Shown piece after piece: positions 4,146 to 20,318 of a stretch of DNA of 32,000 bases. The notes beneath the pieces were generated by a model. That model worked only from the letters and a program-made list of their open reading frames with translations, did no database searches and was not told the DNA's origin. Position numbers and translations under genes: made by a program. This DNA is from an uncultured Terrimonas sp. (GTDB lineage: Bacteria > Bacteroidota > Bacteroidia > Chitinophagales > Chitinophagaceae), in assembly GCA_964445775.1 (NCBI GenBank), contig CAYUMH010000004.1, forward strand, positions 112,420 through 144,419, given 5' to 3'. Each line of letters starts with the position of its first letter. Positions within the stretch are counted from its first letter, which is position 1.

Positions 4146-4360
4146 AAATGTTTAATTAATCAGCAGCAAGGTATAAAACATTAAAAAAGCATTTGTACCC
4201 GCCACAGGGTATATTGCGGGTTATATTGTTATACAGATACAATGCGGAAAACATTAATTTTGAGTGGTTATTAGTAAGCTGTTACGATTGAATGTGATAT
4301 AAAAACTTAAAATGACTTATTTTTTGATAAGTCATTTTGTATTATCCCGGCAGGTATAAA

Positions 4361-6091
4361 ATGCATAAGGCTATAATGAAAAATTGGGTAAGATGTATAA
4401 AATGGCCAAAGCCGGCCCGGTTTTATGGTGGCTGGATGATAGGGTTATGCTTTTTCATTTCTTATAGCCTGGCCGCCCAATCAAATATTGATAGTATACG
4501 TACCGGGTTGAATAAGCCGGGCATTACAAAAAAAGAGAAGATCAATTATTTAAACAGGCTGGCTGCTTTTTTAAATAAAGATTCTACCAACCAGGCATTG
4601 GTGTATGCACATGAAGCATACCTGCTTAGCCTGAACGAAAATGATAAAAAACTCCAGGTAAACTCGCTGTTGAACCTTTCGGAAGGATACCTGTACAATG
4701 ACATTTACGACCAGGCCCTGCAATATGGGTATTCGGCACTGGACATCGCGGTTTTATTAAAAGATACTTTGCTGCTTGCCAACTGTAATACCAACCTTGG
4801 CTGGATTTTTTATGATACCGAGAACGTTAATTTCTCGCTGCAGTACCACCGTGAGGCTTATGGGTTATTTAAACAAAAAGGCGCTTTAAAAAATGTGGCC
4901 ATATCCTTAAATGCCATGGGGCTTATTTTTCAAATGAAAAATGAGAATGATTCGGCTAAGGTATATTTTGAACAATCTTTACAACTTGCCCGCGAACAGG
5001 ACCTGCGTTCCGTTATTTCGGCGGCACTCAATAATTTAGGCATTTGTGAAAATGTAGCGGGAAATTATAATGCAGCCATTGCGTATTTCCATAACGCATT
5101 GGCCATGAAAAGCCCTTCTGCTGATCTTTTATCCCTTGCCGAGATTGAAAACCAGATGGCTTTCTCCTACCTGAAGCTAAAAAACTACCAACGGGCTGAT
5201 TCCCTGCTCAAAAGTTCACGCAATTTAATTGACAGGTCCTCCTCTAACTCAAAAAAAGAGAAACTGCTGGATAACCTGCATATTGCTTCGCAACTGTTCG
5301 AGGTATTGGGCGATTATGCAAAAGCATTTGCCAACCTGAAAGAATATACCAATATCAGTAATCAGATCATCTCACGTAATAAAAGTGATGTATTGGCTAC
5401 TTTAAAACTAAAAAAAGAGGCGCAGGCAAAGGAAGACCAGATAAAAGAACTGCATGTACAAAAAGAGCTGCGCAGTTTTCAACGGAATGCCCTGGCCGGG
5501 GGCATTATATTGCTGGTAATAATCGGCATTTTGCTCTATGGCCGTTTACAGCAAAAGCAAAAAAGACAAAAAGAGCTGGATGCGGTAAAGCAGCAATTGA
5601 TAAAACAGGAACTGGATAGTACCCTGAGTGAAAAAGCCACTTTGAATGAAAAGCTGCAATATAAAAATGCCGATCTGAAAAGCTATGCCCTGTTTATAGC
5701 ACAGCGAAATGAAATGATCGGCCAGTTTATCGGCGAATTGAAAGGAATGAATATTAGTGCCAACCTGCCAAAGGAAACAGCCGTTGAACTGGACAAGGTT
5801 ATCCGTAAATTCCAGAAAAACCTGGATGTGAACAGCGAAACCCAGGATTTTAATTTATCGGTAGATGAAACCCTGAAAGACTTTTTTTATAACCTGCTTC
5901 AAAAATACCCCGGACTTACGGATAATGAACGCCGCCTTTGTGCACAGATCCGGCTCAATTTATCTATCAAGGAAATTGCCTCCCTCAATAACATTTCAGT
6001 AAAATCTGTTGAAATGGCCCGTTACCGGCTGCGTAAACATTTCGGATTGCAGTCACAGGATAACCTGGGTGATTTTCTGAAAACATTCTGA
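4361..6091 (+). CDS. Membrane-anchored TPR-repeat transcriptional regulator with C-terminal LuxR-type HTH
   Basis: N-terminal hydrophobic segment (WMIGLCFFISYSLAAQ), about 300 aa of TPR-like repeats, and a TM helix (ALAGGIILLVIIGILLYG). A coiled-coil region and a C-terminal LuxR/GerE HTH follow (LTDNERRLCAQIRLNLSIKEIASLNNISVKSVEMARYRLRKHF). The track ORF begins at 4337 with a non-ATG codon. ATG candidates are 4361 and 4376, so the start is uncertain. Confidence 0.8.
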   Translation: MHKAIMKNWVRCIKWPKPARFYGGWMIGLCFFISYSLAAQSNIDSIRTGLNKPGITKKEKINYLNRLAAFLNKDSTNQALVYAHEAYLLSLNENDKKLQVNSLLNLSEGYLYNDIYDQALQYGYSALDIAVLLKDTLLLANCNTNLGWIFYDTENVNFSLQYHREAYGLFKQKGALKNVAISLNAMGLIFQMKNENDSAKVYFEQSLQLAREQDLRSVISAALNNLGICENVAGNYNAAIAYFHNALAMKSPSADLLSLAEIENQMAFSYLKLKNYQRADSLLKSSRNLIDRSSSNSKKEKLLDNLHIASQLFEVLGDYAKAFANLKEYTNISNQIISRNKSDVLATLKLKKEAQAKEDQIKELHVQKELRSFQRNALAGGIILLVIIGILLYGRLQQKQKRQKELDAVKQQLIKQELDSTLSEKATLNEKLQYKNADLKSYALFIAQRNEMIGQFIGELKGMNISANLPKETAVELDKVIRKFQKNLDVNSETQDFNLSVDETLKDFFYNLLQKYPGLTDNERRLCAQIRLNLSIKEIASLNNISVKSVEMARYRLRKHFGLQSQDNLGDFLKTF

Positions 6092-6658
6092 TCGGTTTAC
6101 CGGCTTACCTTGTCCGGCGCTTCCCCAATCATCTTACAGCTAATATAAACAGCAGCCTGTACCTCACCGGCCGGTTTTACCTGGAGTGCATGTTGTATTC
6201 CTTATTTACCCCTCTCAACAACAGCGCAGCCATACCAGCTTCCGGCTGCCTCACTTACTGTTTTTTTGGCCCGTACAACCTATTAATTTGCCCGCATTTT
6301 GTTTTGAGCTTGAAACCGGGGTTGTAATATTATTGATTACAGTATATTATAATTATTTATTAATCATAGGTTTAAGAGCCGTGTAGAGGTGCTGTAGGGG
6401 TAAGGGTGGGGTTCGTGTATAGGCAAAAAAAGGGGAAACGCTTCTCTTTTAAATTATGTTTAGAAAATTATTTTTTTAGCAGTGCAGGCATACTAAAACT
6501 ATAATAACTGACGATTGCCATATCATTCATAAGGATCAAAACGAATTGCAAAAGGCCATATTTATATCATGGTAGCCCGTCTTTAAAAGCCGTTTTTAAG
6601 GTTTTGCTTGTTCCACTGTACTTCTTTTATCACAACTAACATTTTTAAACTTACTATC

Positions 6659-9600
6659 GTGAAAAAAAACTGCTGTCTCAAACACATTCCCCCGTTTGTG
6701 CAAAAAGTATTGCTGTTGAGTATTTTCCTTGCCTTCGGTGTCAGTGCCTTTGCCTTTCAACAGGCAGGCAACATTAAAGGACTGGTAACCGATGTGTCGG
6801 GCAATCCGTTACAGGGAGTTACCATCCAGTTAAAAAATACGACAACCGTTACTGTTACCGATGAAAATGGAAAATTCCGGTTGGAAGCTCCTGCAAAAGG
6901 GGTGCTCGTATTCTCTTTTACCGGCTATGCCGCTAAGGAGGTTGAAATAGGAAATCAGCTGGATATAACTGTTCAATTAACGCAGCAAGCTACTAACCTT
7001 GATGAAGTAGTGGTAATAGGCTACGGAACCCAGAAAAAAAGTAATTTAACCAGTGCCGTATCATCGGTAAAAGGCGATCAGCTGCAAAAAACAACCAGCA
7101 ATAACCCGGTTAATGCTTTACAGGGAAGGGTAGCTGGCCTTTCTGTAACAAGTCCGGGTGGTAACCCCGGGCAAATGTCCGATGTACGGTTACGTGGCAT
7201 TGGTACTTTTGGCGGTCACCAGCCATTATACGTTATTGATGGTACACCCGGCGACCCTTATTACCTGAACAATAATGATGTGGAGTCGATTGAGGTGTTA
7301 AAGGATGGCGCTGCTGCTTCCATTTACGGTTCTACCAGTGCCAATGGTGTGATCCTGATTACCACCAAACGTGGTAAAAAAGGCATACCACTCATTGATG
7401 TCAACAGTTATTACGGCCTTGCCAACCCCACTAAAAAGTATGATTTTTTAGATGCAGAGGGGTACAAGACCGTTCATAAAATGATGTACGAAAATGCGGG
7501 TGTTACTAACTTACCTGCTTACATTACCACCAATACCGGTGTTAATACCAATTGGCAGGACCTGATAACCCGCAGCGGAAATGTGCAGAATCATAATATT
7601 AATCTTCGCGGCGGCGGCGAATACCTGACGTTTGCACTCAGTGGCGATTATACCAATGAAACGGGAACATTTATCGGCTCAAAATTTAATAAAAAAGGTA
7701 TCCGGTCGGTTAATGAATTTAAAAAAGGAATATTAACAGTTACCAACAACCTCATTTTTTCACAAACCAGGTCCGAAGGCTATAAGTTCAATCTTGCCGA
7801 CGCTTATTTCCAATCTGCTTTATTACCGGTTTATGATAATAATGAAAAATACGGATATGCTTTAACGGTAAATGGTTTACCAAGGTTTCAAAACCCCGTG
7901 GGTGCCGATCACTTTATGGAAAACCACAGCACTACGCAATACCTGGCAGATAACTTAAAAATCCGCCTGCAGTTATTAAAAGGACTTAGCTATACGGCTA
8001 ATATCAACTATATAACAGCCAACAGCTTTGCGTACGAACATACACCTCCTTTCAGGGTAAATGCAAATGACCCGCTTATTTCCTATCCTTATGTGTACAA
8101 TAACAGGAGTAATTATAAGGAAATGCTGGCTGAGCACCTGTTGAATTATGACTGGAAGCGCGGTAAACACAATGTGTCATTACTCGCCGGTTATTCTGCG
8201 CAGCAAAAAACAAATGAATACTTAAGTGTAACAGCCGATGGAAAAACCATTGTACGTACAGTGGTGAACGGGGCTATTGTTGAAAAAGAAGTGGCAGGCG
8301 GATTTACCAATCCCGATTTTAACACCATCAGCGCAGGCCTGGGAGGTACTTTTAATGCTGCAGGCTCCAACAACAAATATGTACGTCATTCAGGCTTTGG
8401 ACGTATAAATTATGCGTATGATAATAAATACCTGTTACAGGTATCTGTGCGCAGGGACGGCTCTTCCATATTCGGATTAAATAACCGTTACGGTGTTTTC
8501 CCCTCTGTATCTGCCGGCTGGAACATCAGCAGGGAATCTTTTATGAGCCATATTACCTGGCTGAATAACTTAAAAATAAGAGCCAGTTACGGAGAGTTAG
8601 GAAATGAAGGTGCATTGGGTTATTACGATCACCAGGCCCTTATTACTACTTCCAACAGGTGGTCGGGTGGTTATGTACAAGGCGCGGGTGCCACACCATG
8701 GCCGGGTTCGGCCAGTTATGCGCTGGAAAACAGGGACCTTAAATGGGAGACCAGCAAATCCACCAATATAGGTGTTGATTTTGCGGTATTGCATAATACA
8801 CTATCCGGCTCTATTAACTATTACAACAATAAAACCGAAGGGTTACTGATCATTAAAGAAGTGCCTCCTTCTGCCGGGGTAAATGATCCTGTTTTAAATG
8901 TGGGTAAGATCGCCAATAAAGGAATAGAACTGGAACTGAATTATCTGTACCAGTTAAAAGAGGGGTCAGTAAATATTGGCGGCAACCTGAGTACGGTTTC
9001 CAATAAAGTGATCAGCCTTGCCGATGCGGAGCAGACTTTATACGGCACCGGGTTGAAATTCGGGTCAGATCATATTCCTACTCAAACAAAAGTGGGTAAA
9101 GAAATTGGCGCTTTTTACCTGTATGAAGCCGATGGTATTTTTAAAACTGACGCAGAAGCGGCGGCCTACAAAAATAAAGATGGCGATGCACTGCAACCTG
9201 ATGCCAAAGCAGGTGATATCCGGTTCAGGGATGCTAACGGCGATGGTGTTATTGATGAAAATGATAAAACCTACCAGGGTACCGGCTTTCCTAAATTTGA
9301 ATACGGTTTTAATATAGCGGCTAATTACAAACAATTTGATCTCTCTGTTTTTTTCCAGGGTGTAGGTGGAAATAAAATATACAACGGTAACCGTTTTGAA
9401 CTGGAAGGAATGGAAGCCGGCAGAAATTACCTGGCTACCACTTTGAATGCATGGACACCGCAAAATCCTAATTCATCTATGCCAAGGGCCGTATTAGGCG
9501 ATCCTAACGGCAATAGCCGTGAGTCCAACCGTTTCCTCGAAAACGGCGCATACCTGCGACTGAAATTATTACAGCTCGGTTATACTTTACCTACTGCATT

Positions 9601-9784
9601 GGTACAACGGGCCTGGATGCAGAAAGTCCGCATTTATGTGGGTGCACAAAACCTGTTAACCATTACTAAATACAATGGACTTGACCCCGAAGTGGGAAGG
9701 GTTAACGTGTTAAATACGGGTGTAGACAGGGTGTTATATCCGCAAAACAAAAGATGGATCGCAGGTATACAGATCACTTTATAA
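6659..9784 (+). CDS. susC: SusC/RagA-family TonB-dependent outer-membrane transporter
   Basis: About 1040 aa. It has a signal peptide (LLLSIFLAFGVSAFAFQ), a carboxypeptidase-regulatory-like domain (IKGLVTDVSGNPLQGVTIQLKN) and a TonB box/plug (DEVVVIGYGTQKK). The C-terminal barrel ends in an aromatic-rich terminus, and a SusD gene follows immediately. The track start at 6608 is TTG. GTG at 6659 (VKKNCC...) gives a more typical N-terminus. No STN signalling domain is present. Confidence 0.93.
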   Translation: MKKNCCLKHIPPFVQKVLLLSIFLAFGVSAFAFQQAGNIKGLVTDVSGNPLQGVTIQLKNTTTVTVTDENGKFRLEAPAKGVLVFSFTGYAAKEVEIGNQLDITVQLTQQATNLDEVVVIGYGTQKKSNLTSAVSSVKGDQLQKTTSNNPVNALQGRVAGLSVTSPGGNPGQMSDVRLRGIGTFGGHQPLYVIDGTPGDPYYLNNNDVESIEVLKDGAAASIYGSTSANGVILITTKRGKKGIPLIDVNSYYGLANPTKKYDFLDAEGYKTVHKMMYENAGVTNLPAYITTNTGVNTNWQDLITRSGNVQNHNINLRGGGEYLTFALSGDYTNETGTFIGSKFNKKGIRSVNEFKKGILTVTNNLIFSQTRSEGYKFNLADAYFQSALLPVYDNNEKYGYALTVNGLPRFQNPVGADHFMENHSTTQYLADNLKIRLQLLKGLSYTANINYITANSFAYEHTPPFRVNANDPLISYPYVYNNRSNYKEMLAEHLLNYDWKRGKHNVSLLAGYSAQQKTNEYLSVTADGKTIVRTVVNGAIVEKEVAGGFTNPDFNTISAGLGGTFNAAGSNNKYVRHSGFGRINYAYDNKYLLQVSVRRDGSSIFGLNNRYGVFPSVSAGWNISRESFMSHITWLNNLKIRASYGELGNEGALGYYDHQALITTSNRWSGGYVQGAGATPWPGSASYALENRDLKWETSKSTNIGVDFAVLHNTLSGSINYYNNKTEGLLIIKEVPPSAGVNDPVLNVGKIANKGIELELNYLYQLKEGSVNIGGNLSTVSNKVISLADAEQTLYGTGLKFGSDHIPTQTKVGKEIGAFYLYEADGIFKTDAEAAAYKNKDGDALQPDAKAGDIRFRDANGDGVIDENDKTYQGTGFPKFEYGFNIAANYKQFDLSVFFQGVGGNKIYNGNRFELEGMEAGRNYLATTLNAWTPQNPNSSMPRAVLGDPNGNSRESNRFLENGAYLRLKLLQLGYTLPTALVQRAWMQKVRIYVGAQNLLTITKYNGLDPEVGRVNVLNTGVDRVLYPQNKRWIAGIQITL

Positions 9785-9803: not shown

Positions 9804-11333
9804 ATGAAAAAAATAACTTCAGTTTTATTGCTTTTAGCCACAGGGATGATGGTGATGACAGGCTGTAAAAAAGACCTGCTGAATCAAAATGCTCCTGATC
9901 AGTTAACTACGGATAATTTTTATACTTCTAAGGAAAAAGCCCTGTCGGGACTTGCCGCCGCCTATTCACAACTGGAGAGTTTTGTAGGCTGGGATAATTT
10001 TGTTGAGGCAAGGTCCGTAAGGGAATTCTACCGCGAGGATTATGTGAAGCCGGGAGATGATGCTTTCAACTATCCCTGGTGGATAGATCATTACAATTTT
10101 TCTTTTACATCGGGCAATTATGCCATTGATCTTTTATGGAGAGATAATTACCGGGGCTTGAACTTTACCAACCAGGTGTTGGGTAATGTTGCTAAAATGC
10201 CTGCTGAATTAATAGATGAAGCCAGCCGGAAAGAAATTTTAGCGGAAGCCAGGTTTTTAAGGGCTTATTATCACTTTAAATTATTGGTCAATTTTGAAAA
10301 AATAATTATCCGTGATAAAGTGCCTACTTCGGAAGCGGACCTGCCCAAAGCTACTTCTGAAAGAAAAGAAGTGTATGATATTATTATTGAAGATCTGAAA
10401 GCGGCAGAACAGGACCTTCCTTTAAAATCAAAACGTCCGGCTACAGAATTGGGCCGTGCTACCAAAGGCACCGTACAGGCCTACCTGGGTAAAGTGTACC
10501 TGTACAGGGCGGGTGAAGAGCCGGCCAATGCGGCGGCCTATTACACGGCGGCAGCAACCAGCCTGAACAATGTTATCCTGTCCGGGGAATATGATATGGA
10601 AACCAACTTTGTTGGCATGTTTAACGGTACCGTTAAAAACGGTACTGAGTCTGTATTTGAACTGCAACAAACTGCTGATGCATCTAATGGCGCCGTGTAC
10701 CGCTCGTACCTGGCTGATTGGATGGCTGCCTGGGAATTGGGCGGGTATGGTGAGATATATGGTACACAAAGATTATTGACCGAAATGCAGAAAGAGGGAA
10801 AAGTAGCAACCGGTAACTTATACGATCCGCGTTTATACCAGACCATGATTTTTGAAGATGCTTATTTTAATGATGATGCTAACCCTCGTGTATATGGTTA
10901 TACTTATGACGAGGTATTTGAAAACGGGTCGGGTGTACTGGCATTTAAAAAATGGATTCCGGCAGATATAACCCAGCTGGGACGTTCGCTGGCCATTAAT
11001 ATGCCGCTGATGCGTTATGCCGATGTGGTATTGATGTATGCGGAAGTATTGAATAACCAGGAAAAATTTGGCGATGCCATGGCGCAGGTAAATAGTTTGA
11101 GAACAAAACGAACCATGCCTGTTTTAGCGCTGAATAACAAACAGGCAATTTTTGACCAGATCATACACGAACGTGTTATGGAATTTACATTGGAAGGAAG
11201 CCGGTTTTATGATCTCAGGAGATGGGGATTACTGCAGCAAAATATGCAGGCAGCCGGAAGAACTTTTTCTGCGGATAAGGCTTTTTATCCTATTCCTTTA
11301 AAAGAAACCATCAACAATCCGCTGGTAAGGTAA
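9804..11333 (+). CDS. susD: SusD/RagB-family nutrient-binding outer-membrane lipoprotein
   Basis: 509 aa with a lipoprotein signal peptide and Cys (LLLLATGMMVMTGCKKD). SusD-like TPR-like helical core and conserved C-terminus (RVMEFTLEGSRFYDLRRWG). Lies 19 nt after susC. Confidence 0.93.
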   Translation: MKKITSVLLLLATGMMVMTGCKKDLLNQNAPDQLTTDNFYTSKEKALSGLAAAYSQLESFVGWDNFVEARSVREFYREDYVKPGDDAFNYPWWIDHYNFSFTSGNYAIDLLWRDNYRGLNFTNQVLGNVAKMPAELIDEASRKEILAEARFLRAYYHFKLLVNFEKIIIRDKVPTSEADLPKATSERKEVYDIIIEDLKAAEQDLPLKSKRPATELGRATKGTVQAYLGKVYLYRAGEEPANAAAYYTAAATSLNNVILSGEYDMETNFVGMFNGTVKNGTESVFELQQTADASNGAVYRSYLADWMAAWELGGYGEIYGTQRLLTEMQKEGKVATGNLYDPRLYQTMIFEDAYFNDDANPRVYGYTYDEVFENGSGVLAFKKWIPADITQLGRSLAINMPLMRYADVVLMYAEVLNNQEKFGDAMAQVNSLRTKRTMPVLALNNKQAIFDQIIHERVMEFTLEGSRFYDLRRWGLLQQNMQAAGRTFSADKAFYPIPLKETINNPLVR

Positions 11334-11380: not shown

Positions 11381-11424
11381 AACATGAATGTATTCGTGTA
11401 ACTATTTGAAAACAAAATGCTGTG

Positions 11425-14400
11425 ATGGTTAAAAAAAGTTGCTTCGGTTTTTTATTCGTTTTATTCATTGTAAATATTATAACTGCGCAGGAAATAAAAA
11501 ATGATTGGGAAAATCCCGGACTTCCTGTACATAATACCATGAAGCCGGCTGCCTGGTTTATTCCCTATCCCGGTGAAGCAGCTGCTCTGGCAAAAGGCAA
11601 TAGCCCCTTTGTAAAATCACTGGATGGTATATGGAAGTTTAACCTGGTGAATACGCCTGCAGAACGGCCTGCGGCATTTTATAAAGACAATTACGACCTG
11701 CGCAAATGGCATGATATAAAAGTACCGGCAAGCTGGCAGACCGAGGGTTTCGACCGTTTTATTTTTACCGATGTGGAATATCCCATTCCTGTGAATCCAC
11801 CATATGTGCCGGCCGATTATAACCCTGTAGGTTCCTATAAAAAAAGCTTTACTATTCCCGAAAACTGGAAAGGGAAAGATGTTTTCATTCATTTCGGCGC
11901 AGTCAGTTCTTTCTTTTATCTATGGATCAATGAACAGTATATTGGTTTTAGCAAGGACAGTAAAACAGAAGCAAAATTTGATATTACGCCTTACCTGAAA
12001 AAAGGACAGAATACCGTGTCGGTGCAGGTTTTTCGTTTTAGCGACGGTTCATACCTGGAAGGGCAGGACATGTGGAAGCTGAGCGGGATAGAAAGAACAG
12101 TGTACCTGACGGCCCGTCCTCCGTTTGCTGTGTATGATTTTTTTGTAAAGGCTTCGCTGGATAAGCAGTATAAAGATGGCCTGTTCAGTTTAAAAATTGC
12201 GTTTAATAAAAAGCCATCCGCCCGGGAAGCGCAGCAGTCTGTTCAGGTAAAAATTATTGATGAAGAAGCGAATAATAAAATTCTTTTTGAAGCTACACCC
12301 GCTATTACGCCAACAGGGGAAATATCTATCAACGAAGTCTTTCCCGGCATAAAAAAATGGAATGCCGAAACACCGCATTTGTACACACTTATTATTAACC
12401 ATATTAACAAAGAGGGGAAAATAATTGAAACTATCAGTCATAAAATTGGTTTCAGGAAAGCCGAAATATTACACGGTCTTTTTTTATTGAACGGTGTGGC
12501 GATAAAATTTAAAGGGGTGAACCGGCATGAGTTTGACATGATCAACGGGAAGGTGATCAACAGGGAGCAGATGATCCGGGATATTAGATTATTTAAAGAA
12601 TATAATATCAATGCGGTAAGAAACAGCCACTATCCTAATGCTCCGGAATGGTATGCCTTATGTGATCAGTACGGTATATATGTAGTAGATGAGGCGAATA
12701 TTGAATGTGACGGCATGAGTTTTTCGCCATTAAAAACTTTATCGGATAAAGCCGGTTGGAAAAATGCTTACCTGAACAGGACGGAAAGAATGTTTGAAGC
12801 AAACAAAAATTTCGCAAGCGTTATAACCTGGTCTTTGGGAAATGAGAGCCAGATGGGCGATAATTTCATCGCTACTTATCAATACCTGAAATCGGTTGAC
12901 GATAGCCGCCCGGTAGCTTATGAGCCTGCGAGCAGAACGGATTATTCAGATGTTTTTTTTCCGATGTATAAATCTTTGAATGTGATGCAGGAGTATGTGA
13001 AAGAATGGCGCAGCAAACCTTATATCCAGTGCGAATATGCGCATATGATGGGTAACAGCGGCGGCAATTTAAAAGAATACTGGGACCTGATCTACAGCAA
13101 TGAACAGTTACAGGGAGGATATATATGGGATTTTTCGGACCAGACCTTCCGCATCAAAGATAAAAACGGCAGGGATATCTGGGGCTATGGCCGGGATATG
13201 GGTAAGGTAGGCGAAACAAGCGATACCAGTTTTTGCGCCGATGGATTATTTTCAGCCGACAGGAAGCCACATCCGCAGGCATTTGAGCTAAAAAAAATAT
13301 ACCAGCATATTCATTTCAGTCCCGTTGATTTTGCTGCAAACAAAATTGACATAACCAACCGTTTTGATTTTACCAATCTTGGTCAATATAATTTTGAGTG
13401 GTATATAAAAGGTAACGGTGTAATGGTGGCACAGGGAAAACTAGACCAGCTGGATATAGCGCCGCATACAACAAAAACAATCCAATTAAATATACCCGTC
13501 TTTGATATAAAGCCGGGCGTAGAATATTTTTTAACCATCAATGCCAGGACCAAACAAAAATCGGCTTTATTGCCGGCAGATTTTTTACTGGCTTTTGAAC
13601 AGTTTAAATTACCTGTATACATAGAAAAAGAAGGGGGAGTAGTAAGTAATTTGCCTACACTGGAGTTATTACAAACCAATGACCAGGTAAAAATTGCTGC
13701 ATCATCATTTGCTGTTGTGTTTGATAAAAAAAGCGGTTGGTTATCCGGTTACCATTTACAGGGTGTAGCGATTATAAAAGAGGCTTTACAACCTCATTTC
13801 TGGCGCACAGCAACGGATAATGATATTGGTAACAGCCAGCAGATACGTTGTGCCGTTTGGCAGGATCCACTGAGAACGGCTGTATTGGATTCCATAACGG
13901 TGAAACAATTGGATAAACAACATATAGAAGTGAGTACTTTTCATTACCTGCCCGATATTAAGGCAAATTACCTGGCTACATACAGGGTAGCAGCCAATGG
14001 ATCAGTACAGGTGAATATTGAAATGCTGGCTTCGGCAGGGGACTTTCCCGAAATGCCCAGGTTTGGGATGAAGGTTATTTTGCATAAAGACTTTGGTCGT
14101 GTAAAATGGTTCGGGCGTGGCCCGTTTGATAATTACGAGGACCGTAAATCGGCGGCGAGTATTGATCTGTACCAGATGCCGGCCGACTCCCTGTTCCACC
14201 CCTATGCCCGGGCACAGGAAAGCGGGTATAGGACCGATGTGCGGTGGATAAGCCTGACCAATAAACAGGGACTTGGCCTGATGGCAGAAGGAAGCCCTGT
14301 TATCAGTACCGGTGTTTTACACTTTGATATGCATAAGCTGGAGTTTAATAAAGATGCGCCGGAAAATAACCACGGAGGCTCCATGATTAATGATGACCTG

Positions 14401-14535
14401 GTATGGTGGAATATTGATTACCGGCAAATGGGGGTAGGAGGCGATAACAGCTGGGGCGCAAAACCTCATGCCGCTTATTTATTACCCTATAGAAATTACC
14501 AGTATACTTTTACGTTAAGGCCGGTTAAGCCATAA
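11425..14535 (+). CDS. GH2 beta-galactosidase (LacZ-like), secreted/periplasmic
   Basis: About 1036 aa with a signal peptide (MVKKSCFGFLFVLFIVNIITAQE). Both LacZ catalytic motifs are present: acid/base WSLGNESQMG and nucleophile YIQCEYAHMMGNSGG. A C-terminal beta-galactosidase small-chain-like domain is also present. The track start at 11422 is GTG and the adjacent ATG is at 11425. Confidence 0.93.
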   Translation: MVKKSCFGFLFVLFIVNIITAQEIKNDWENPGLPVHNTMKPAAWFIPYPGEAAALAKGNSPFVKSLDGIWKFNLVNTPAERPAAFYKDNYDLRKWHDIKVPASWQTEGFDRFIFTDVEYPIPVNPPYVPADYNPVGSYKKSFTIPENWKGKDVFIHFGAVSSFFYLWINEQYIGFSKDSKTEAKFDITPYLKKGQNTVSVQVFRFSDGSYLEGQDMWKLSGIERTVYLTARPPFAVYDFFVKASLDKQYKDGLFSLKIAFNKKPSAREAQQSVQVKIIDEEANNKILFEATPAITPTGEISINEVFPGIKKWNAETPHLYTLIINHINKEGKIIETISHKIGFRKAEILHGLFLLNGVAIKFKGVNRHEFDMINGKVINREQMIRDIRLFKEYNINAVRNSHYPNAPEWYALCDQYGIYVVDEANIECDGMSFSPLKTLSDKAGWKNAYLNRTERMFEANKNFASVITWSLGNESQMGDNFIATYQYLKSVDDSRPVAYEPASRTDYSDVFFPMYKSLNVMQEYVKEWRSKPYIQCEYAHMMGNSGGNLKEYWDLIYSNEQLQGGYIWDFSDQTFRIKDKNGRDIWGYGRDMGKVGETSDTSFCADGLFSADRKPHPQAFELKKIYQHIHFSPVDFAANKIDITNRFDFTNLGQYNFEWYIKGNGVMVAQGKLDQLDIAPHTTKTIQLNIPVFDIKPGVEYFLTINARTKQKSALLPADFLLAFEQFKLPVYIEKEGGVVSNLPTLELLQTNDQVKIAASSFAVVFDKKSGWLSGYHLQGVAIIKEALQPHFWRTATDNDIGNSQQIRCAVWQDPLRTAVLDSITVKQLDKQHIEVSTFHYLPDIKANYLATYRVAANGSVQVNIEMLASAGDFPEMPRFGMKVILHKDFGRVKWFGRGPFDNYEDRKSAASIDLYQMPADSLFHPYARAQESGYRTDVRWISLTNKQGLGLMAEGSPVISTGVLHFDMHKLEFNKDAPENNHGGSMINDDLVWWNIDYRQMGVGGDNSWGAKPHAAYLLPYRNYQYTFTLRPVKP

Positions 14536-14596: not shown

Positions 14597-16552
<1,956 letters not shown>

Positions 16553-16562
16553 ACCTGGTGTT

Positions 16563-18878
16563 ATGCATTTTAATGAAACCTTTATCCGGCAACTGGCGAA
16601 TGACCAATACGGGCTGGATATAAAAGTAAGCCGGCTGAAAGGATACGATGAAGAGAATTTTTTACTGGAAGACAGAGTGGGAAAGAAGTATATCCTGAAA
16701 GTAGCAACGGAGCAACACAACTACGGTTTTATTGCTGCGCAGGTGGCTGTTTTGCAACATCTTTCCGGAACGGATTTGAAGGACATGTTCCAGCAAATTG
16801 TACCCGATATACAGGGCAACCCCATCTTTACTGTAAAACATTCCGGTGCAGTTTATTATATCAGGGTGCTTACTTACCTGGATGGAATATTCTGGGCAGA
16901 TCACAAAGACCGTACAGATGTTTTATATACTGACCTGGGTAGTTTTTTAGGTAAGATGGATAAGGCCTTACAAAATTTTTCACATGCGGCCATCCACCGG
17001 CGTTATACCTGGGACGTGACCACGGCCGCCGATGCGTATACGAATGTAAAATATATCAGGGATCATGAACTGCGCAGGATGGTTGGCTATTTTTTACTGC
17101 AGTTTGAAACAGAAGTAACGCCCTTTCTTCCCTCGTTACGACAGGCCTATATTCATAATGATGCAAATGATCTGAATATTTTAGTTGCTAATGACAGGAT
17201 AAAAGGATTGATCGATTTTGGTGATATGGTGCACAGCGCCCTGGTGGGTAACCTGGCCATTGCCTGTACCTATGCCATGTTCAATACGGACGATCCCCTG
17301 CATGCCGCTGTTAAAATAGTGGAAGGGTATCATGCAGTGTACCCGTTGACGATGCAGGAAACGGACCTGCTCTATTATCTGATAGCCGCCAGGTTATGCA
17401 TCAGTCTTACACAATCTGCCTATAATGCTTCATTAAGCTCAGCGAATGAGCATCATTTTGTGTCGGAAAAACCGGCCCGGGATTTATTATACAGGCTGAT
17501 TAAAATAAACCCGGTAAAGGCACAGGAAAGTTTCCGGTTATCATGTGGCTTTCCATCGTTAATTGATAAAACTGAGGGGTATGGTCCATTACTGCAGGAA
17601 AGAAGAAAACATATCGGCCGGAACCTGAGTATCAGTTATCAGCAGCCTTTAAAAATTGTAAAAGGTGCCTTGCAATATTTGTATGATGATCGGGGTAATA
17701 CATTTGTTGACTGCGTTAATAATGTAAGCCATGTGGGGCATTGCCATCCTGTTGTGGTAAAAGCCGTACAAAAGCAAATAGCCACACTTAATACCAATAC
17801 CAGGTACCTGAATGATGCTATTACCGATTTTGCGAAAGCGTTGATTGCAACCTTACCGCCTAAGCTTTCTGTATGTTATTTTACCAATTCGGGCAGTGAG
17901 GCAAATGACCTGGCGATACGGATGAGCCGGCATCTTACAAAGCAACAGGACGTGATCGTGTTAGATCATGCTTACCATGGCACAACAACGGTAGCCCTGG
18001 AGATGAGTCCTTATAAATTTGACGGCAAAGGAGGGTTTACACAAAAGCCGTACATCCATAAAGCTGTTTCACCCGATTTATACCGGGGTGAATTCCGTTA
18101 CCAGCACGAAGATGCCGGCATGCAATATGCAAACGCTGTAAAGACGATTATTGAGCAGCTATCGGCGGATAATAAAGGTGTTGCCGCTTTTATCTGCGAA
18201 ACACTGTTAGGTGTTGGCGGCCAGATACCTTTACCTAAAAACTACCTGAAGGAAGTATATAAACATGTACGGGCTGCCGGAGGTGTTTGTATTGCCGATG
18301 AGGTACAGGTTGGCTTTGGAAGAGTGGGTGAAAAATTCTGGGGCTTTGAATTGCAGGATGTGGAACCGGATATTGTTGTTTTAGGTAAACCAATAGGGAA
18401 CGGGCATCCGCTGGCGGCAGTGATTGTAACCGAAGAAATTGCAGATTGTTTTAATAATGGAATGGAATATTTTAATACCTATGGAGGCAATCCCGTTTCA
18501 ATGACCACGGGCCTGTCGGTGTTGCATGTAATAAAGGATGAAATGCTGCAACAACACGCAAAGGAAACAGGGGAGCATCTTCTTAGTCTACTTACTCTTT
18601 TAATGCATAAATATGCCATTATTGGTGATGTAAGGGGGCATGGCCTGTTTATTGGTGCCGAACTGGTCCGTAGCCGGGAAACAAAAGAACCGGCTGTAGC
18701 CGAGATCAATGCGATTGTGGAACGGATGAAAGAGAAGGGATTTTTGTTGAGTACAGACGGCCCTTTGCATAACGTATTAAAGATAAAACCACCCCTGGTA
18801 TTTAATAAAGCGGATGCAACCGAAATGGTAACCATGCTGGAGGAGGTATTGGAGGAGATGAACATGGATAAGCTGTAA
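16563..18878 (+). CDS. Bifunctional fusion: hydroxylysine-kinase-like (APH-fold) domain + class-III aminotransferase-fold phospho-lyase domain
   Basis: 771 aa with no signal peptide. Residues ~1-335 resemble human HYKK/AGPHD1 ([27 protein letters not shown], Brenner motif [12 protein letters not shown] at nt 17151-17186, LIDFGDM). Residues ~345-771 resemble PHYKPL/ETNPPL ([44 protein letters not shown]). The PLP lysine lies in [12 protein letters not shown], with the Lys codon at 18387-18389. Confidence 0.9.
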
Positions 18879-18968: not shown

Positions 18969-20318
18969 ATGACGATTCGTATATTACGTGTGCTGACTTA
19001 TTTACGCAAGAAACTGCGTTTACCCAACGACCCGGAAAGTATCAGGCTGTCTACGGAACGTATCAGGGACAGCGCTGAGATTGCTGGTGTGAACTTATGG
19101 GTACTGGTGATCGCTATTTTTATTGCCTGCCTGGGCTTAAATACTGATTCGGTAACCGTGGTCATCGGTGCGATGTTAATATCGCCGTTGATGGGCCCTA
19201 TATCGGCTCTCGGTCTGGGCCTGGGTATTAACGACTGGGAACTGATAAAGAGAGCCCTGCGTAATCTTATTGTAGCGGCCTTGTTATCGCTTATTACTTC
19301 TACTGTATTTTTTCTTATCAGTCCCATGAAGGATGCGGGACAAATGTTATTATCACAAACCTCTCCCTCCTTATATGATGTATTGATCGCATTTTTTGGT
19401 GGCCTGGCCAGTATTATGGCCAGTTCCAGTAAACTAAGGGCCAGTAATGTAATACCAGGTGTGGCCATTGCTACTACTTTAATGATGCCCCTGTGTACTG
19501 CAGGATATGGTATATCGATAGGAGAGTGGCGGTATATTGCCGGAGCTATTTATATGTTCTTTATCAACTCGGTATTTATTGGTGCCGCTACTTTTTTAAT
19601 GGTCAACCTGTTTGGTTATCCTAAAGTAAGTATTCACGATAGTAAAAAACGTAAACGTACCAGGGCCATTATTGCCACATTGCTCATCATTACCTTTATT
19701 CCCAGTGTGTACCTGACCTATCATATTGTTACCCGTTATTTTTTTGAAAAGAATGCCAATGCTTTTATTAAAAACGAAGTACAGGATAAGGATCATTTTG
19801 TGATCACCAAAAGATTGTTGTATAACCGGAATAAACCTGTTATTGAGTTGAGTATGCTGGGCCAGAATATTGACAGTGTTCACTATGCCGAACTGGTAAA
19901 ACGCATGCCCAAATATTTCCTGGGCCATGTGGGTCTGGTATTATTCCAGGGCCAGGATAGCCGGGTGGCCGCCAAGTCATATTTTGACCAGATAAGCAGC
20001 GGGCTTGAAATGAATAATGCTGCTATTCAAAATTTATACCGGCGGGTGGATAGTCTGCAAAAAATAACTGACCAGCAGTTGTATGTGGATAGCCTGGAAT
20101 ATAAAATTGGTAAGCTGGTACACACGGTTGATAGCAGTGTACAAAGCGTGCGTGTATCCAGCGTAATAGCCTACAATATGGTGAAAGCTAAAAAAGATAC
20201 TTCCTGGACTGCACAGCTGCAGTTTCAAAAAAATCCTTCACCGGCTGACCGTAATAAAATGACTGATCTGCTAAAAGAAAAGTTAGGCCTGCAAAATATG
20301 CAGCTGCGTTTCGATTAA
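18969..20318 (+). CDS. DUF389-family integral membrane protein with ~200-aa C-terminal soluble extension
   Basis: 449 aa. The multi-TM N-terminal half has the DUF389-type motif GAMLISPLMGPI. The C-terminal half is hydrophilic. Function unknown. Confidence 0.7.
   Translation: MTIRILRVLTYLRKKLRLPNDPESIRLSTERIRDSAEIAGVNLWVLVIAIFIACLGLNTDSVTVVIGAMLISPLMGPISALGLGLGINDWELIKRALRNLIVAALLSLITSTVFFLISPMKDAGQMLLSQTSPSLYDVLIAFFGGLASIMASSSKLRASNVIPGVAIATTLMMPLCTAGYGISIGEWRYIAGAIYMFFINSVFIGAATFLMVNLFGYPKVSIHDSKKRKRTRAIIATLLIITFIPSVYLTYHIVTRYFFEKNANAFIKNEVQDKDHFVITKRLLYNRNKPVIELSMLGQNIDSVHYAELVKRMPKYFLGHVGLVLFQGQDSRVAAKSYFDQISSGLEMNNAAIQNLYRRVDSLQKITDQQLYVDSLEYKIGKLVHTVDSSVQSVRVSSVIAYNMVKAKKDTSWTAQLQFQKNPSPADRNKMTDLLKEKLGLQNMQLRFD

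What the first reader, a model, noticed from the sequence alone, without database searches (positions are those of the whole stretch)
16563..18878. Single-polypeptide hydroxylysine-kinase-like + phospho-lyase-like fusion
Seen: one uninterrupted 771-aa ORF. The N-terminal ~335 aa carry APH/HYKK-type motifs ([19 protein letters not shown]). The C-terminal ~430 aa carry class-III aminotransferase-fold motifs that are very close to PHYKPL/ETNPPL as I recall them, including the PLP-Lys in [10 protein letters not shown] (codon 18387-18389).
Established: within this fold, the AGXT2L1/AGXT2L2 subgroup are ammonia-eliminating phospho-lyases, not transaminases. The kinase that makes their substrate is a separate gene in animals.
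Inference: the fusion implies substrate channelling of a phosphorylated amino alcohol, and annotation pipelines would probably mislabel it as an aminotransferase. Its placement as the last gene of a glycoside-hydrolase operon provides a physiological source for the substrate.
Basis: partly seen in the sequence, partly recalled or inferred. Interest (0 to 1): 0.6.

Follow-up and report, generated by a model that had tools for sequence, protein, structure and literature searches.

The report
Hydroxylysine kinase/phospho-lyase fusion in collagen-sugar locus
This soil Terrimonas gene encodes one protein joining a small-molecule kinase to a phosphate-and-ammonia-eliminating enzyme, and its conserved neighbours suggest it finishes the breakdown of the sugar-tagged hydroxylysine found in collagen, a route not yet described in bacteria.

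Summary
Window 16563-18878 (+) is one open 771-aa frame, with an APH-type kinase domain (residues 1-327), a 13-residue linker, and a class-III PLP domain (residues 341-771).

The C-domain is 52% identical to human ETNPPL (E 4e-147). The next non-lyase hit is at E 3e-55, so it is a phospho-lyase type rather than a transaminase.

The fusion itself is not new. It is common in Bacteroidota, and, as I recall, bacterial fusions of this kind guided the 2012 identification of HYKK and PHYKPL.

The context is the stronger result. I examined 65 species-level loci of this clade.
- 51 have a co-directional beta-galactosidase just upstream: GH2 in Chitinophagales, GH42 in Flavobacterium.
- 44 of those 51 also have an alpha-glucosidase: YgjK-type GH63, or GH31 in one case.
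- 36 carry an aminoadipate-pathway gene (ALDH7-type dehydrogenase, HglS, or a YdiJ-like protein).

This points to 5-hydroxylysine released from Glc-Gal-hydroxylysine. No biochemistry exists for this protein, and substrate channelling is untested. The scan has noted the same locus type on other DNA (232 notes, at least 190 genomes).

The parts
16563..18878 (+). 771-aa bifunctional ORF (kinase + PLP phospho-lyase), with no signal peptide
16563..17543 (+). N-terminal APH-superfamily small-molecule kinase domain (residues 1-327)
   Evidence: Pfam APH, E 3e-20. Matches the N-terminal part of NCBIfam PRK06148 (E 6e-86), then homoserine kinase II (E 8.5e-14). AlphaFold2 pLDDT 95.3. Foldseek best hit is 2PPQ homoserine kinase (TM 0.73-0.79), and 6EF6 aminopropanol kinase also appears.
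17151..17186 (+). Kinase catalytic loop [13 protein letters not shown]198, D200 and N205 are invariant.
17208..17228 (+). Metal-binding DFG-like segment LIDFGDM. D218, F219 and D221 are invariant.
17544..17582 (+). Short inter-domain coil (residues 328-340) between the last kinase helix and the first lyase helix
   Evidence: AlphaFold2 secondary structure. The alignment to ETNPPL begins at residue 345-346.
17583..18875 (+). C-terminal class-III-fold PLP domain of the ETNPPL/PHYKPL (phospho-lyase) type
18387..18389 (+). Codon of Lys609, the predicted PLP Schiff-base lysine
   Evidence: Aligned with the G-K-P-M-G-N-G-H-P segment of ETNPPL. Invariant in orthologues. Coordinates computed.
14600..16552 (+). 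Secreted YgjK-type GH63 alpha-glucosidase, ending 10 nt upstream of the fusion
   Evidence: Pfam. PDB best hit is E. coli YgjK, E 1e-88, at 30% identity over the full length. Signal peptide.
11422..14535 (+). Secreted LacZ-type GH2 beta-galactosidase
   Evidence: Pfam five-domain GH2 architecture. 31-32% identity to EbgA and LacZ. Signal peptide.
9804..11333 (+). SusD-like outer-membrane binding protein
6608..9784 (+). SusC-like TonB-dependent transporter
4337..6091 (+). TPR protein upstream of susC, a possible regulator. Conserved at this position in L031, L033, L049 and L127.
   Evidence: No DNA-binding domain was detected.
18969..20318 (+). DUF389 membrane protein downstream. Probably not part of the system, because it is kept only in Terrimonas rubra.
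   Evidence: 1 of 65 loci

Best explanation
The gene encodes a cytoplasmic bifunctional enzyme.

Proposed reaction:
1. The N-terminal APH-type kinase phosphorylates the 5-hydroxyl of 5-hydroxy-L-lysine.
2. The C-terminal PLP domain carries out a 1,2-elimination on 5-phosphohydroxylysine. This releases phosphate and ammonia and yields 2-aminoadipate 6-semialdehyde. It is the reaction pair of animal HYKK plus PHYKPL.

Proposed role in the locus. The enzyme is the last step of a Sus-like locus:
1. SusC/SusD import collagen-type Glc-alpha1,2-Gal-beta-O-hydroxylysine, or small glycopeptides carrying it.
2. The periplasmic YgjK-type GH63 removes the glucose.
3. The periplasmic GH2 removes the galactose.
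4. Free hydroxylysine enters the cell by an unidentified carrier and is processed by the fusion.
5. The semialdehyde is oxidised by the genome's ALDH7-type dehydrogenase, which lies beside saccharopine dehydrogenase on contig C34, and so joins lysine catabolism.

Shown: the domain identities, the catalytic residues, the predicted localisation signals and the conserved synteny.

Inferred: the substrate, the order of steps and any channelling.
For: Enzyme type:
- The C-domain matches human ETNPPL at E 4e-147 and 52% identity, and Arthrobacter phospho-lyase at E 1e-91. The best non-lyase scores 3e-55.
- The PLP lysine and the kinase catalytic residues are invariant.
- The kinase fold is modelled at pLDDT 95 and is nearest to homoserine and aminopropanol kinases.

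Synteny. Of 65 species-level loci with at least 6 kb upstream:
- 51 have a co-directional beta-galactosidase: 16 GH2 and 35 GH42.
- 44 of those 51 also have an alpha-glucosidase: 43 GH63 and 1 GH31.
- 38 have SusC/D.
- The enzyme family is swapped (GH2 to GH42, GH63 to GH31) while the activity is kept.

Link to the aminoadipate pathway:
- In loci without glycosidases, the fusion is followed by HglS, a 2-oxoadipate to D-2-hydroxyglutarate enzyme (PF07063, E 2.6e-67). It is also followed by an aldehyde dehydrogenase whose best solved relatives are ALDH7A1-type aminoadipate-semialdehyde dehydrogenases, at E 1e-165 to 1e-176, against 6e-72 for other ALDHs.
- One Flavobacterium-type locus (L036) reads HglS-ALDH7-GH63-GH42-fusion-YdiJ-like FAD/Fe-S protein. 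In many Flavobacterium species SusC/SusD lie between the ALDH and GH63.
- HglS and YdiJ are the 2-aminoadipate to 2-oxoglutarate route of Pseudomonas putida (bioRxiv 10.1101/450254).

Other support:
- E. coli YgjK was crystallised with Glc-alpha1,2-Gal (PDB 3W7W, cited in PMC13671375), and its natural substrate is considered unknown (PMC9061262).
- GH2 and GH63 carry signal peptides and the fusion does not.
- The window's own genome has an ALDH7 orthologue (77% identity to the linked one) near saccharopine dehydrogenase.
Against: - There is no biochemical data for any bacterial fusion of this clade that I could find.
- The only solved relatives act on phosphoethanolamine, not phosphohydroxylysine.
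- No PHYKPL or HYKK sequence could be brought in, so specificity residues and orthology were not compared.
- 10 of the 65 loci show none of the linked genes, including Flavobacterium psychrophilum.
- The more distant fusions (38-51% identity; L034, L035, L038-L041) lack the glycosidase context.
- No inner-membrane carrier for hydroxylysine is conserved in the locus.
- This genome lacks HglS and a close YdiJ, so the pathway beyond 2-aminoadipate is unresolved here.
- About 40 of the loci are Flavobacterium species and are not independent.
- The source of collagen-type glycans for a soil Terrimonas is assumed, not shown.
Confidence: 0.6

Rival explanations
1. Ethanolamine kinase plus O-phosphoethanolamine phospho-lyase. 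The fusion would convert ethanolamine, for example from phosphatidylethanolamine turnover, to acetaldehyde, ammonia and phosphate. Its position after the glycosidases would be incidental.
For: The best solved relatives, human ETNPPL 6TOR and Arthrobacter A1RDF1 5G4I, are both phosphoethanolamine phospho-lyases. An aldehyde dehydrogenase nearby could in principle oxidise acetaldehyde.
Against: - The linked aldehyde dehydrogenase is specifically ALDH7/antiquitin type, about 100 orders of magnitude in E-value better than other ALDH classes.
- HglS, which acts on 2-oxoadipate, is directly downstream in several loci.
- The conserved, family-swapping beta-galactosidase and alpha-glucosidase neighbours have no role in ethanolamine use.
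- No ethanolamine transporter or acetaldehyde-handling genes were seen in the loci examined.
- PHYKPL has no solved structure, so 'best PDB hit is ETNPPL' cannot discriminate between the two.
Confidence: 0.1
2. Same chemistry, but on a different vicinal amino alcohol released from a non-collagen Glc-Gal glycoconjugate. Candidates include a glycosylated aminopropanol, a sphingoid base, or a hydroxylysine-like residue of microbial, algal or viral origin. On this reading the locus is not about animal collagen.
For: - Kinase plus phospho-lyase pairs act on other amino alcohols. The aminopropanol kinase of the mycobacterial microcompartment (6EF6) is among the nearest folds.
- The hosts are soil and freshwater bacteria, for which a collagen supply is not demonstrated.
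- YgjK-type enzymes also occur in bacteria that have no hydroxylysine pathway next to the gene (E. coli).
Against: The ALDH7 plus HglS plus YdiJ linkage predicts a C6 alpha-amino-dicarboxylate product, that is, a lysine skeleton. Glc-alpha1,2-Gal-beta-O- attached to an amino alcohol is, to my knowledge, characteristic of hydroxylysine in collagen-like domains.
Confidence: 0.2
3. The C-domain is a genuine omega-transaminase, as most annotations say, and is fused to a kinase of unrelated or resistance-type function.
For: Pfam and most NCBIfam matches are aminotransferase families. Database names say aminotransferase.
Against: - A gap of about 90 orders of magnitude in E-value separates the phospho-lyases from the best other class-III enzymes, which are racemases; true transaminases score worse still.
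- The C-domain is 52% identical to ETNPPL and 24-31% identical to transaminases and racemases.
- All transaminase NCBIfam models score far below their cut-offs.
- The window genome's own class-III transaminases are separated from the whole clade by a very long branch.
Confidence: 0.03

Closest known systems
Vertebrate hydroxylysine catabolism: HYKK (AGPHD1, EC 2.7.1.81) plus PHYKPL (AGXT2L2, EC 4.2.3.134). Veiga-da-Cunha et al. 2012, J Biol Chem 287:7246 (paper not held; content recalled).
   Same: It has the same two activities in the same order, an APH-family kinase and a class-III-fold PLP phospho-lyase. The predicted product is 2-aminoadipate semialdehyde, which feeds ALDH7. As I recall, bacterial fusions were the clue that led to identifying the animal enzymes.
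   Different: Here the two activities are on one polypeptide with a 13-residue linker. The gene is embedded in an outer-membrane import and glycosidase locus. Nucleotide preference and substrate are untested. Orthology of the N-domain to HYKK was not testable here.
Human ETNPPL (PDB 6TOR) and Arthrobacter aurescens A1RDF1 phospho-lyase (PDB 5G4I)
   Same: These are the best sequence and fold matches to residues 341-771, at 52% and 36-38% identity. They share the PLP-lysine segment.
   Different: Both are stand-alone enzymes acting on O-phosphoethanolamine. The gene context here points to a lysine-skeleton substrate.
NCBIfam PRK06148 / PRK06149: about 1000-aa bacterial APH-M23-class III proteins
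   Same: They are the best family matches for both halves. Three-domain relatives occur in the same phylum (L044).
   Different: The M23 peptidase-like middle domain is absent here, and the score of 950.7 is below the 1128 cut-off. In the C-domain tree, the window's two-domain clade is separate from the three-domain proteins and from a second two-domain clade.
Animal PGGHG (GH65 protein-glucosylgalactosylhydroxylysine glucosidase, EC 3.2.1.107)
   Same: It carries out the proposed first step, removal of alpha-1,2-glucose from Glc-Gal-Hyl (PMC8626586).
   Different: The bacterial locus uses a YgjK-type GH63, or GH31 in one locus, from a different family and clan. It adds a beta-galactosidase step. 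As far as I know, no animal enzyme has been assigned to that step.
Pseudomonas putida 2-aminoadipate to 2-oxoglutarate route: HglS (PP_5260) and YdiJ (PP_4493). bioRxiv 10.1101/450254.
   Same: HglS and YdiJ-like genes flank the fusion in many orthologous loci.
   Different: Neither has an orthologue in this window's genome. In P. putida they serve D-lysine catabolism, not hydroxylysine.
Sus-like polysaccharide utilisation loci of Bacteroidota
   Same: It has a SusC/SusD pair followed by co-directional secreted glycosidases.
   Different: The predicted cargo is a disaccharide-amino acid rather than a polysaccharide, and the locus ends in a cytoplasmic amino-acid catabolic enzyme.

Membership tests
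AGXT2L-type PLP phospho-lyases (ETNPPL/PHYKPL) | Class-III aminotransferase (fold-type I) domain | tested here: met
   Pfam PF00202, E 1.8e-77, residues 362-763. Foldseek TM 0.78 to 6TOR, normalised by target length.
AGXT2L-type PLP phospho-lyases (ETNPPL/PHYKPL) | Schiff-base lysine in the conserved G-K-P-x-G-N-G-H-P segment | tested here: met
   K609 aligns with the corresponding ETNPPL segment. It is invariant in 12 orthologues.
AGXT2L-type PLP phospho-lyases (ETNPPL/PHYKPL) | Closer to characterised phospho-lyases than to any transaminase, racemase or decarboxylase | tested here: met
   E 4e-147 and 1e-91, against 3e-55 for the next enzyme class. 52% identity against 24-31%.
AGXT2L-type PLP phospho-lyases (ETNPPL/PHYKPL) | Forms one clade with animal PHYKPL/ETNPPL, to the exclusion of true transaminases, in a tree | tested here: inconclusive
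   The tree of bacterial C-domains, with this genome's own transaminases as outgroup, shows a very long separating branch. No animal sequences could be added, because none was retrievable by the tools.
AGXT2L-type PLP phospho-lyases (ETNPPL/PHYKPL) | Elimination of phosphate and ammonia from a vicinal amino-alcohol phosphate | not testable with these tools
   This needs an enzyme assay.
Hydroxylysine kinase (HYKK/AGPHD1) | APH/protein-kinase-like fold with a catalytic H-x-D-x4-N loop and a metal-binding D-F-G-D | tested here: met
   Pfam APH. AlphaFold2 pLDDT 95.3 and Foldseek hits to homoserine, aminopropanol and aminoglycoside kinases. D200, N205, D218 and D221 are invariant in both alignments; H198 is invariant in A1 and at least 90% conserved in A2.
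Hydroxylysine kinase (HYKK/AGPHD1) | Orthology to animal HYKK | not tested
   There is no solved HYKK structure, and phmmer of the N-domain against the PDB found nothing at E<0.01. The word-based homologue search returned only bacterial proteins. One NCBI record of a 67%-identical orthologue carries the name 'hydroxylysine kinase / 5-phosphonooxy-L-lysine phospho-lyase', which I take to be an automated name.
Hydroxylysine kinase (HYKK/AGPHD1) | Phosphorylates 5-hydroxy-L-lysine | not testable with these tools
   The only evidence is indirect: linkage to ALDH7, HglS and YdiJ-like genes.
NCBIfam PRK06148 (APH-M23-class III tri-domain proteins) | Central M23 peptidase-like domain and a full-length score above the cut-off | tested here: not met
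   There is no M23 match. The score is 950.7 against a cut-off of 1128, in two stretches. A true member, L044, shows APH+M23+Aminotran_3.
Sus-like utilisation locus (PUL) | Adjacent susC/susD pair with co-directional carbohydrate-active enzymes | tested here: met
   Gaps are 19-88 nt. Conserved in 38 of 65 orthologous loci.
Sus-like utilisation locus (PUL) | Dedicated regulator and substrate-induced expression | tested here: inconclusive
   A TPR protein is conserved upstream in four loci, but no DNA-binding domain was found.

The most novel reading that the evidence does not exclude
The fusion is the committed cytoplasmic step of an undescribed bacterial pathway. That pathway takes the collagen-specific glyco-amino acid Glc-alpha1,2-Gal-beta-O-hydroxylysine to 2-aminoadipate, and in Flavobacterium on to 2-oxoglutarate through HglS and a YdiJ-like dehydrogenase.

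If true, it would:
- give YgjK-type GH63 enzymes their long-sought natural substrate;
- identify, to my knowledge, the first beta-galactosidases for Gal-Hyl;
- suggest that the E. coli ebgAC-ygjI-ygjJ-ygjK cluster, which holds a GH2 of unknown natural substrate, an amino-acid permease and GH63, handles a related glyco-amino acid.
Probability: 0.5. Interest if true: 0.75.

Novelty: new variant of a known kind. Interest (0 to 1): 0.6.

Why it matters
Collagen is the most abundant animal protein, and as far as I know its Glc-Gal-hydroxylysine units are excreted by animals largely unmetabolised. A conserved bacterial locus that imports, deglycosylates and catabolises this unit would have several consequences.
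- It would explain how this material is recycled in soil, fresh water and on animal surfaces.
- It would give a physiological substrate to bacterial GH63 (YgjK) enzymes, whose natural substrate is regarded as unknown.
- It would correct a widespread "aminotransferase" mis-annotation.
- It would provide enzymes useful for assaying or removing collagen glycosylation.

The fused kinase/lyase is the marker gene that makes the locus recognisable.

Tried and rejected
- The founding paper (Veiga-da-Cunha 2012) is not held, by DOI or by PMC id. What I say about it rests on memory, plus its citation as a gene-fusion example and as a comparative-genomics example.
- I searched for animal HYKK relatives using the N-domain. 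There was no PDB hit, and the homologue search returned only bacterial sequences. HYKK orthology was therefore not tested.
- The AlphaFold2 model of the full-length protein, built from a 12-row alignment, had mean pLDDT 71 and a poor C-domain. It is unusable for measuring the distance between active sites, so channelling could not be assessed. The N-domain on its own modelled well.
- Promoter and terminator scans were no better than shuffled sequence for promoters and were uninformative for operon ends.
- DUF389 as the missing hydroxylysine carrier is rejected as a conserved part. It is present in 1 of 65 loci.
- The window's GH2 is not specifically Ebg-like: 31% identity to EbgA against 32% to LacZ.
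- Four literature searches for a bacterial Glc-Gal-Hyl or hydroxylysine locus found nothing relevant.
Full report
**Observation**

Window 16563-18878 (+) is one ATG-started open frame of 771 codons. Pfam places an APH phosphotransferase domain at residues 26-251 (E 3e-20) and a class-III aminotransferase-fold domain at residues 362-763 (E 1.8e-77).

- residues 197-208
- residues 216-222
- residues 607-616

The lysine codon is 18387-18389, as stated.

The frame is not an assembly artefact. The 120 best hits in the protein collection are full-length proteins of 765-792 aa with the same two domains. Eighty species-representative genomes encode it at 64-89% identity. The closest named genome is Terrimonas rubra KCTC 23299, at 89% identity with identical gene order, so the window comes from a Terrimonas-like member of the Chitinophagaceae.

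**What the two halves are**

C-terminal half. It aligns end to end with human ethanolamine-phosphate phospho-lyase (6TOR) at E 4e-147 and 52% identity. It also aligns with the Arthrobacter phospho-lyase A1RDF1 (5G4I) at E 1e-91. The next best solved proteins are racemases, at 3e-55 and 24-31% identity. Lys609 lies in the segment that aligns with the PLP-lysine segment of ETNPPL and is invariant in orthologues. All transaminase models of NCBIfam score far below their cut-offs. In a tree, the whole bacterial clade is separated from this genome's own class-III transaminases by a very long branch. I conclude that the C-domain is of the ETNPPL/PHYKPL phospho-lyase type.

N-terminal half. It has no sequence-detectable relative in the PDB. 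It matches the N-terminal parts of NCBIfam PRK06148 and PRK06149 (E 6e-86 and 1e-44), and then type-II homoserine kinase (E 8.5e-14). Modelled alone, it gives pLDDT 95.3. Its nearest solved folds are Agrobacterium homoserine kinase (2PPQ), amicoumacin kinase and the microcompartment aminopropanol kinase 6EF6. The catalytic-loop residues and the metal-binding Asp residues are invariant or nearly so. It is therefore a small-molecule hydroxy-amine kinase. Direct orthology to animal HYKK could not be tested, because no HYKK sequence could be retrieved.

Linker. The two domains are joined by a coil of about 13 residues, 328-340.

**Is the fusion new?**

No.
- It is abundant in Bacteroidota.
- One NCBI record already names a 67%-identical orthologue [quoted passage not shown].
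- As I recall, the 2012 paper that identified HYKK, PHYKPL and ETNPPL started from bacterial bi- and tri-functional fusions. That paper is not held, but PMC12138971 cites it as the example of gene fusions revealing function.

Other architectures exist in the phylum:
- an unfused adjacent pair (L042);
- a tri-domain APH-M23-lyase form of about 1010 aa (L044).

The window's two-domain clade is distinct from a second two-domain clade that groups with the tri-domain proteins.

**Context in the window**

The gene is the last conserved member of a co-directional run, with gaps of 19, 88, 64 and 10 nt:
1. SusC (6608-9784)
2. SusD (9804-11333)
3. GH2 beta-galactosidase (11422-14535)
4. YgjK-type GH63 (14600-16552)
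5. the fusion

GH2 and GH63 have signal peptides, and the fusion has none. The GH63 matches E. coli YgjK at E 1e-88, far better than it matches the mannosylglycerate and glucosylglycerate hydrolases.

**Comparative test**

I fetched 80 orthologous loci and further loci from relatives, and scored them with a protein panel. Among the 65 loci with at least 6 kb upstream:

| Linked gene | Loci |
|---|---|
| Co-directional beta-galactosidase next to the fusion | 51 (GH2 16, GH42 35) |
| Also an alpha-glucosidase | 44 (GH63 43, GH31 1) |
| SusC/D | 38 |

The GH2 form is found in Chitinophagales genera: Terrimonas, Pseudoflavitalea, Flavitalea, Chitinophaga, Ferruginibacter, Agriterribacter and several metagenome-assembled genomes. 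The GH42 form is found in Flavobacterium. One Chitinophagales locus has GH31 in place of GH63. The activity is kept while the enzyme family is swapped. This is the classic signature of functional coupling rather than inherited neighbourhood.

The second line of evidence identifies the carbon skeleton.
- In loci without glycosidases, the fusion is followed directly by HglS (PF07063, E 2.6e-67).
- It is also followed by an aldehyde dehydrogenase whose best solved relatives are ALDH7A1/antiquitin-type aminoadipate-semialdehyde dehydrogenases (E 1e-165 to 1e-176). Other ALDH classes start at 6e-72.
- One Flavobacterium-type locus (L036) reads HglS-ALDH7-GH63-GH42-fusion-YdiJ-like FAD/Fe-S protein. 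In many Flavobacterium species SusC/SusD lie between the ALDH and GH63.
- HglS converts 2-oxoadipate to D-2-hydroxyglutarate, and the YdiJ homologue PP_4493 is required to oxidise that product to 2-oxoglutarate in Pseudomonas putida (10.1101/450254).

In total, 36 of the 65 loci carry at least one of these genes. The product of the fusion is therefore expected to be 2-aminoadipate semialdehyde, which means the substrate is 5-hydroxylysine rather than ethanolamine.

The window's own genome has the ALDH7 orthologue (77% identity) on contig C34, near a saccharopine dehydrogenase. It has no HglS and no close YdiJ.

**Fit with the glycan**

Glc-alpha1,2-Gal-beta-O-hydroxylysine is the collagen disaccharide unit, and animals remove its glucose with the GH65 enzyme PGGHG (PMC8626586). 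E. coli YgjK has a Km of about 230 mM for nigerose, so its natural substrate is assumed to be something else (PMC9061262). It has been crystallised with Glc-alpha1,2-Gal (3W7W; PMC13671375). An alpha-glucosidase of this type, followed by a beta-galactosidase and a hydroxylysine kinase/lyase, is exactly the enzyme set needed to dismantle the unit from the outside in.

**Limits**

- No enzyme of this bacterial clade has been assayed, as far as I could find.
- Ten of the 65 loci show none of the linked genes, and the six more distant fusions examined (38-51% identity) lack the context.
- About 40 of the loci are Flavobacterium species and are not independent.
- The Flavobacterium sequences nest inside the Chitinophagales clade on short branches, which suggests lateral spread.
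- Within the window's genus, the gene is present in only one of four other species, and in 6 of 41 relatives overall.
- No inner-membrane carrier is conserved. The downstream DUF389 gene is kept only in T. rubra.
- Substrate channelling could not be evaluated, because the full-length model was poor in the lyase half.

**Earlier notes of this scan**

The scan has 232 notes in at least 190 genomes describing the same kind of locus on other DNA. I reached the HglS, ALDH7 and GH42 results before reading those notes, and they agree. They are AI notes and do not count as independent evidence.

**Verdict**

The fusion is a known architecture, and this gene is a new member of it. Its conserved embedding in a Sus-like locus with alpha-glucosidase, beta-galactosidase and aminoadipate-pathway genes defines a probable, apparently undescribed bacterial route for collagen-type glycosylated hydroxylysine.

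My confidence in each step:

| Claim | Confidence |
|---|---|
| Kinase plus phospho-lyase chemistry | about 0.9 |
| Hydroxylysine as substrate | about 0.7 |
| The full locus model | about 0.6 |

Noticed in passing
L131 (E. coli K-12 NC_000913.3 3221466-3231239): ebgR-ebgA-ebgC, ygjI, ygjJ and ygjK are all co-directional and adjacent. EbgA is the GH2 'evolved beta-galactosidase', whose natural substrate is unknown as far as I know. YgjI is an amino-acid permease (Pfam E 3.8e-32). YgjK is the GH63 crystallised with Glc-alpha1,2-Gal. This is the same GH2 + GH63 pairing as in the window, with an amino-acid carrier between the two, so the cluster may handle a Glc-Gal-amino acid. The window's GH2 is no closer to EbgA (31% identity) than to LacZ (32%).
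   Followed up: partly
L036, L048/L059 and about 30 other Flavobacterium loci: Cluster HglS-ALDH7-[SusC-SusD]-GH63-GH42-fusion-YdiJ-like FAD/Fe-S protein. This is nearly a complete route from Glc-Gal-Hyl to 2-oxoglutarate, with only the 2-aminoadipate transaminase not seen in the locus. Several of the species are, as far as I know, fish-associated (F. tructae, F. oncorhynchi, F. branchiicola), and F. cutihirudinis is, as its name suggests, from leech skin.
   Followed up: partly
L054:7577-9811: A GH31 enzyme sits between GH2 and the fusion, where other Chitinophagales loci have GH63. This is a second non-orthologous replacement.
   Followed up: partly
L044:7846-13028: The tri-domain APH-M23-lyase protein (1010 aa) is preceded by a galactokinase and a DHDPS-family gene. 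This hints that the tri-domain form is also tied to galactose release.
   Followed up: no
L042:5678-9261: An unfused version: a DAO-type FAD oxidoreductase, a 338-aa APH kinase and a 432-aa lyase as three adjacent genes. The kinase stop abuts the lyase start.
   Followed up: no
Tree of C-domains; genomes G001, G002, G004: The Flavobacterium and Mucilaginibacter fusions nest within the Chitinophagales clade on short branches. The gene is missing from three of the four other species of the window's genus. Together these suggest lateral spread and frequent loss.
   Followed up: partly
window 18969-20318: A DUF389 membrane protein lies 90 nt downstream of the fusion. It is kept only in Terrimonas rubra, so it is unlikely to be the missing hydroxylysine carrier.
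   Followed up: yes
G000 contig C34:12304-15943 (L133:4305-7943): An ALDH7-type aminoadipate-semialdehyde dehydrogenase and a saccharopine dehydrogenase lie close together. This is the lysine-catabolic entry point that would receive the fusion's product in this genome.
   Followed up: partly
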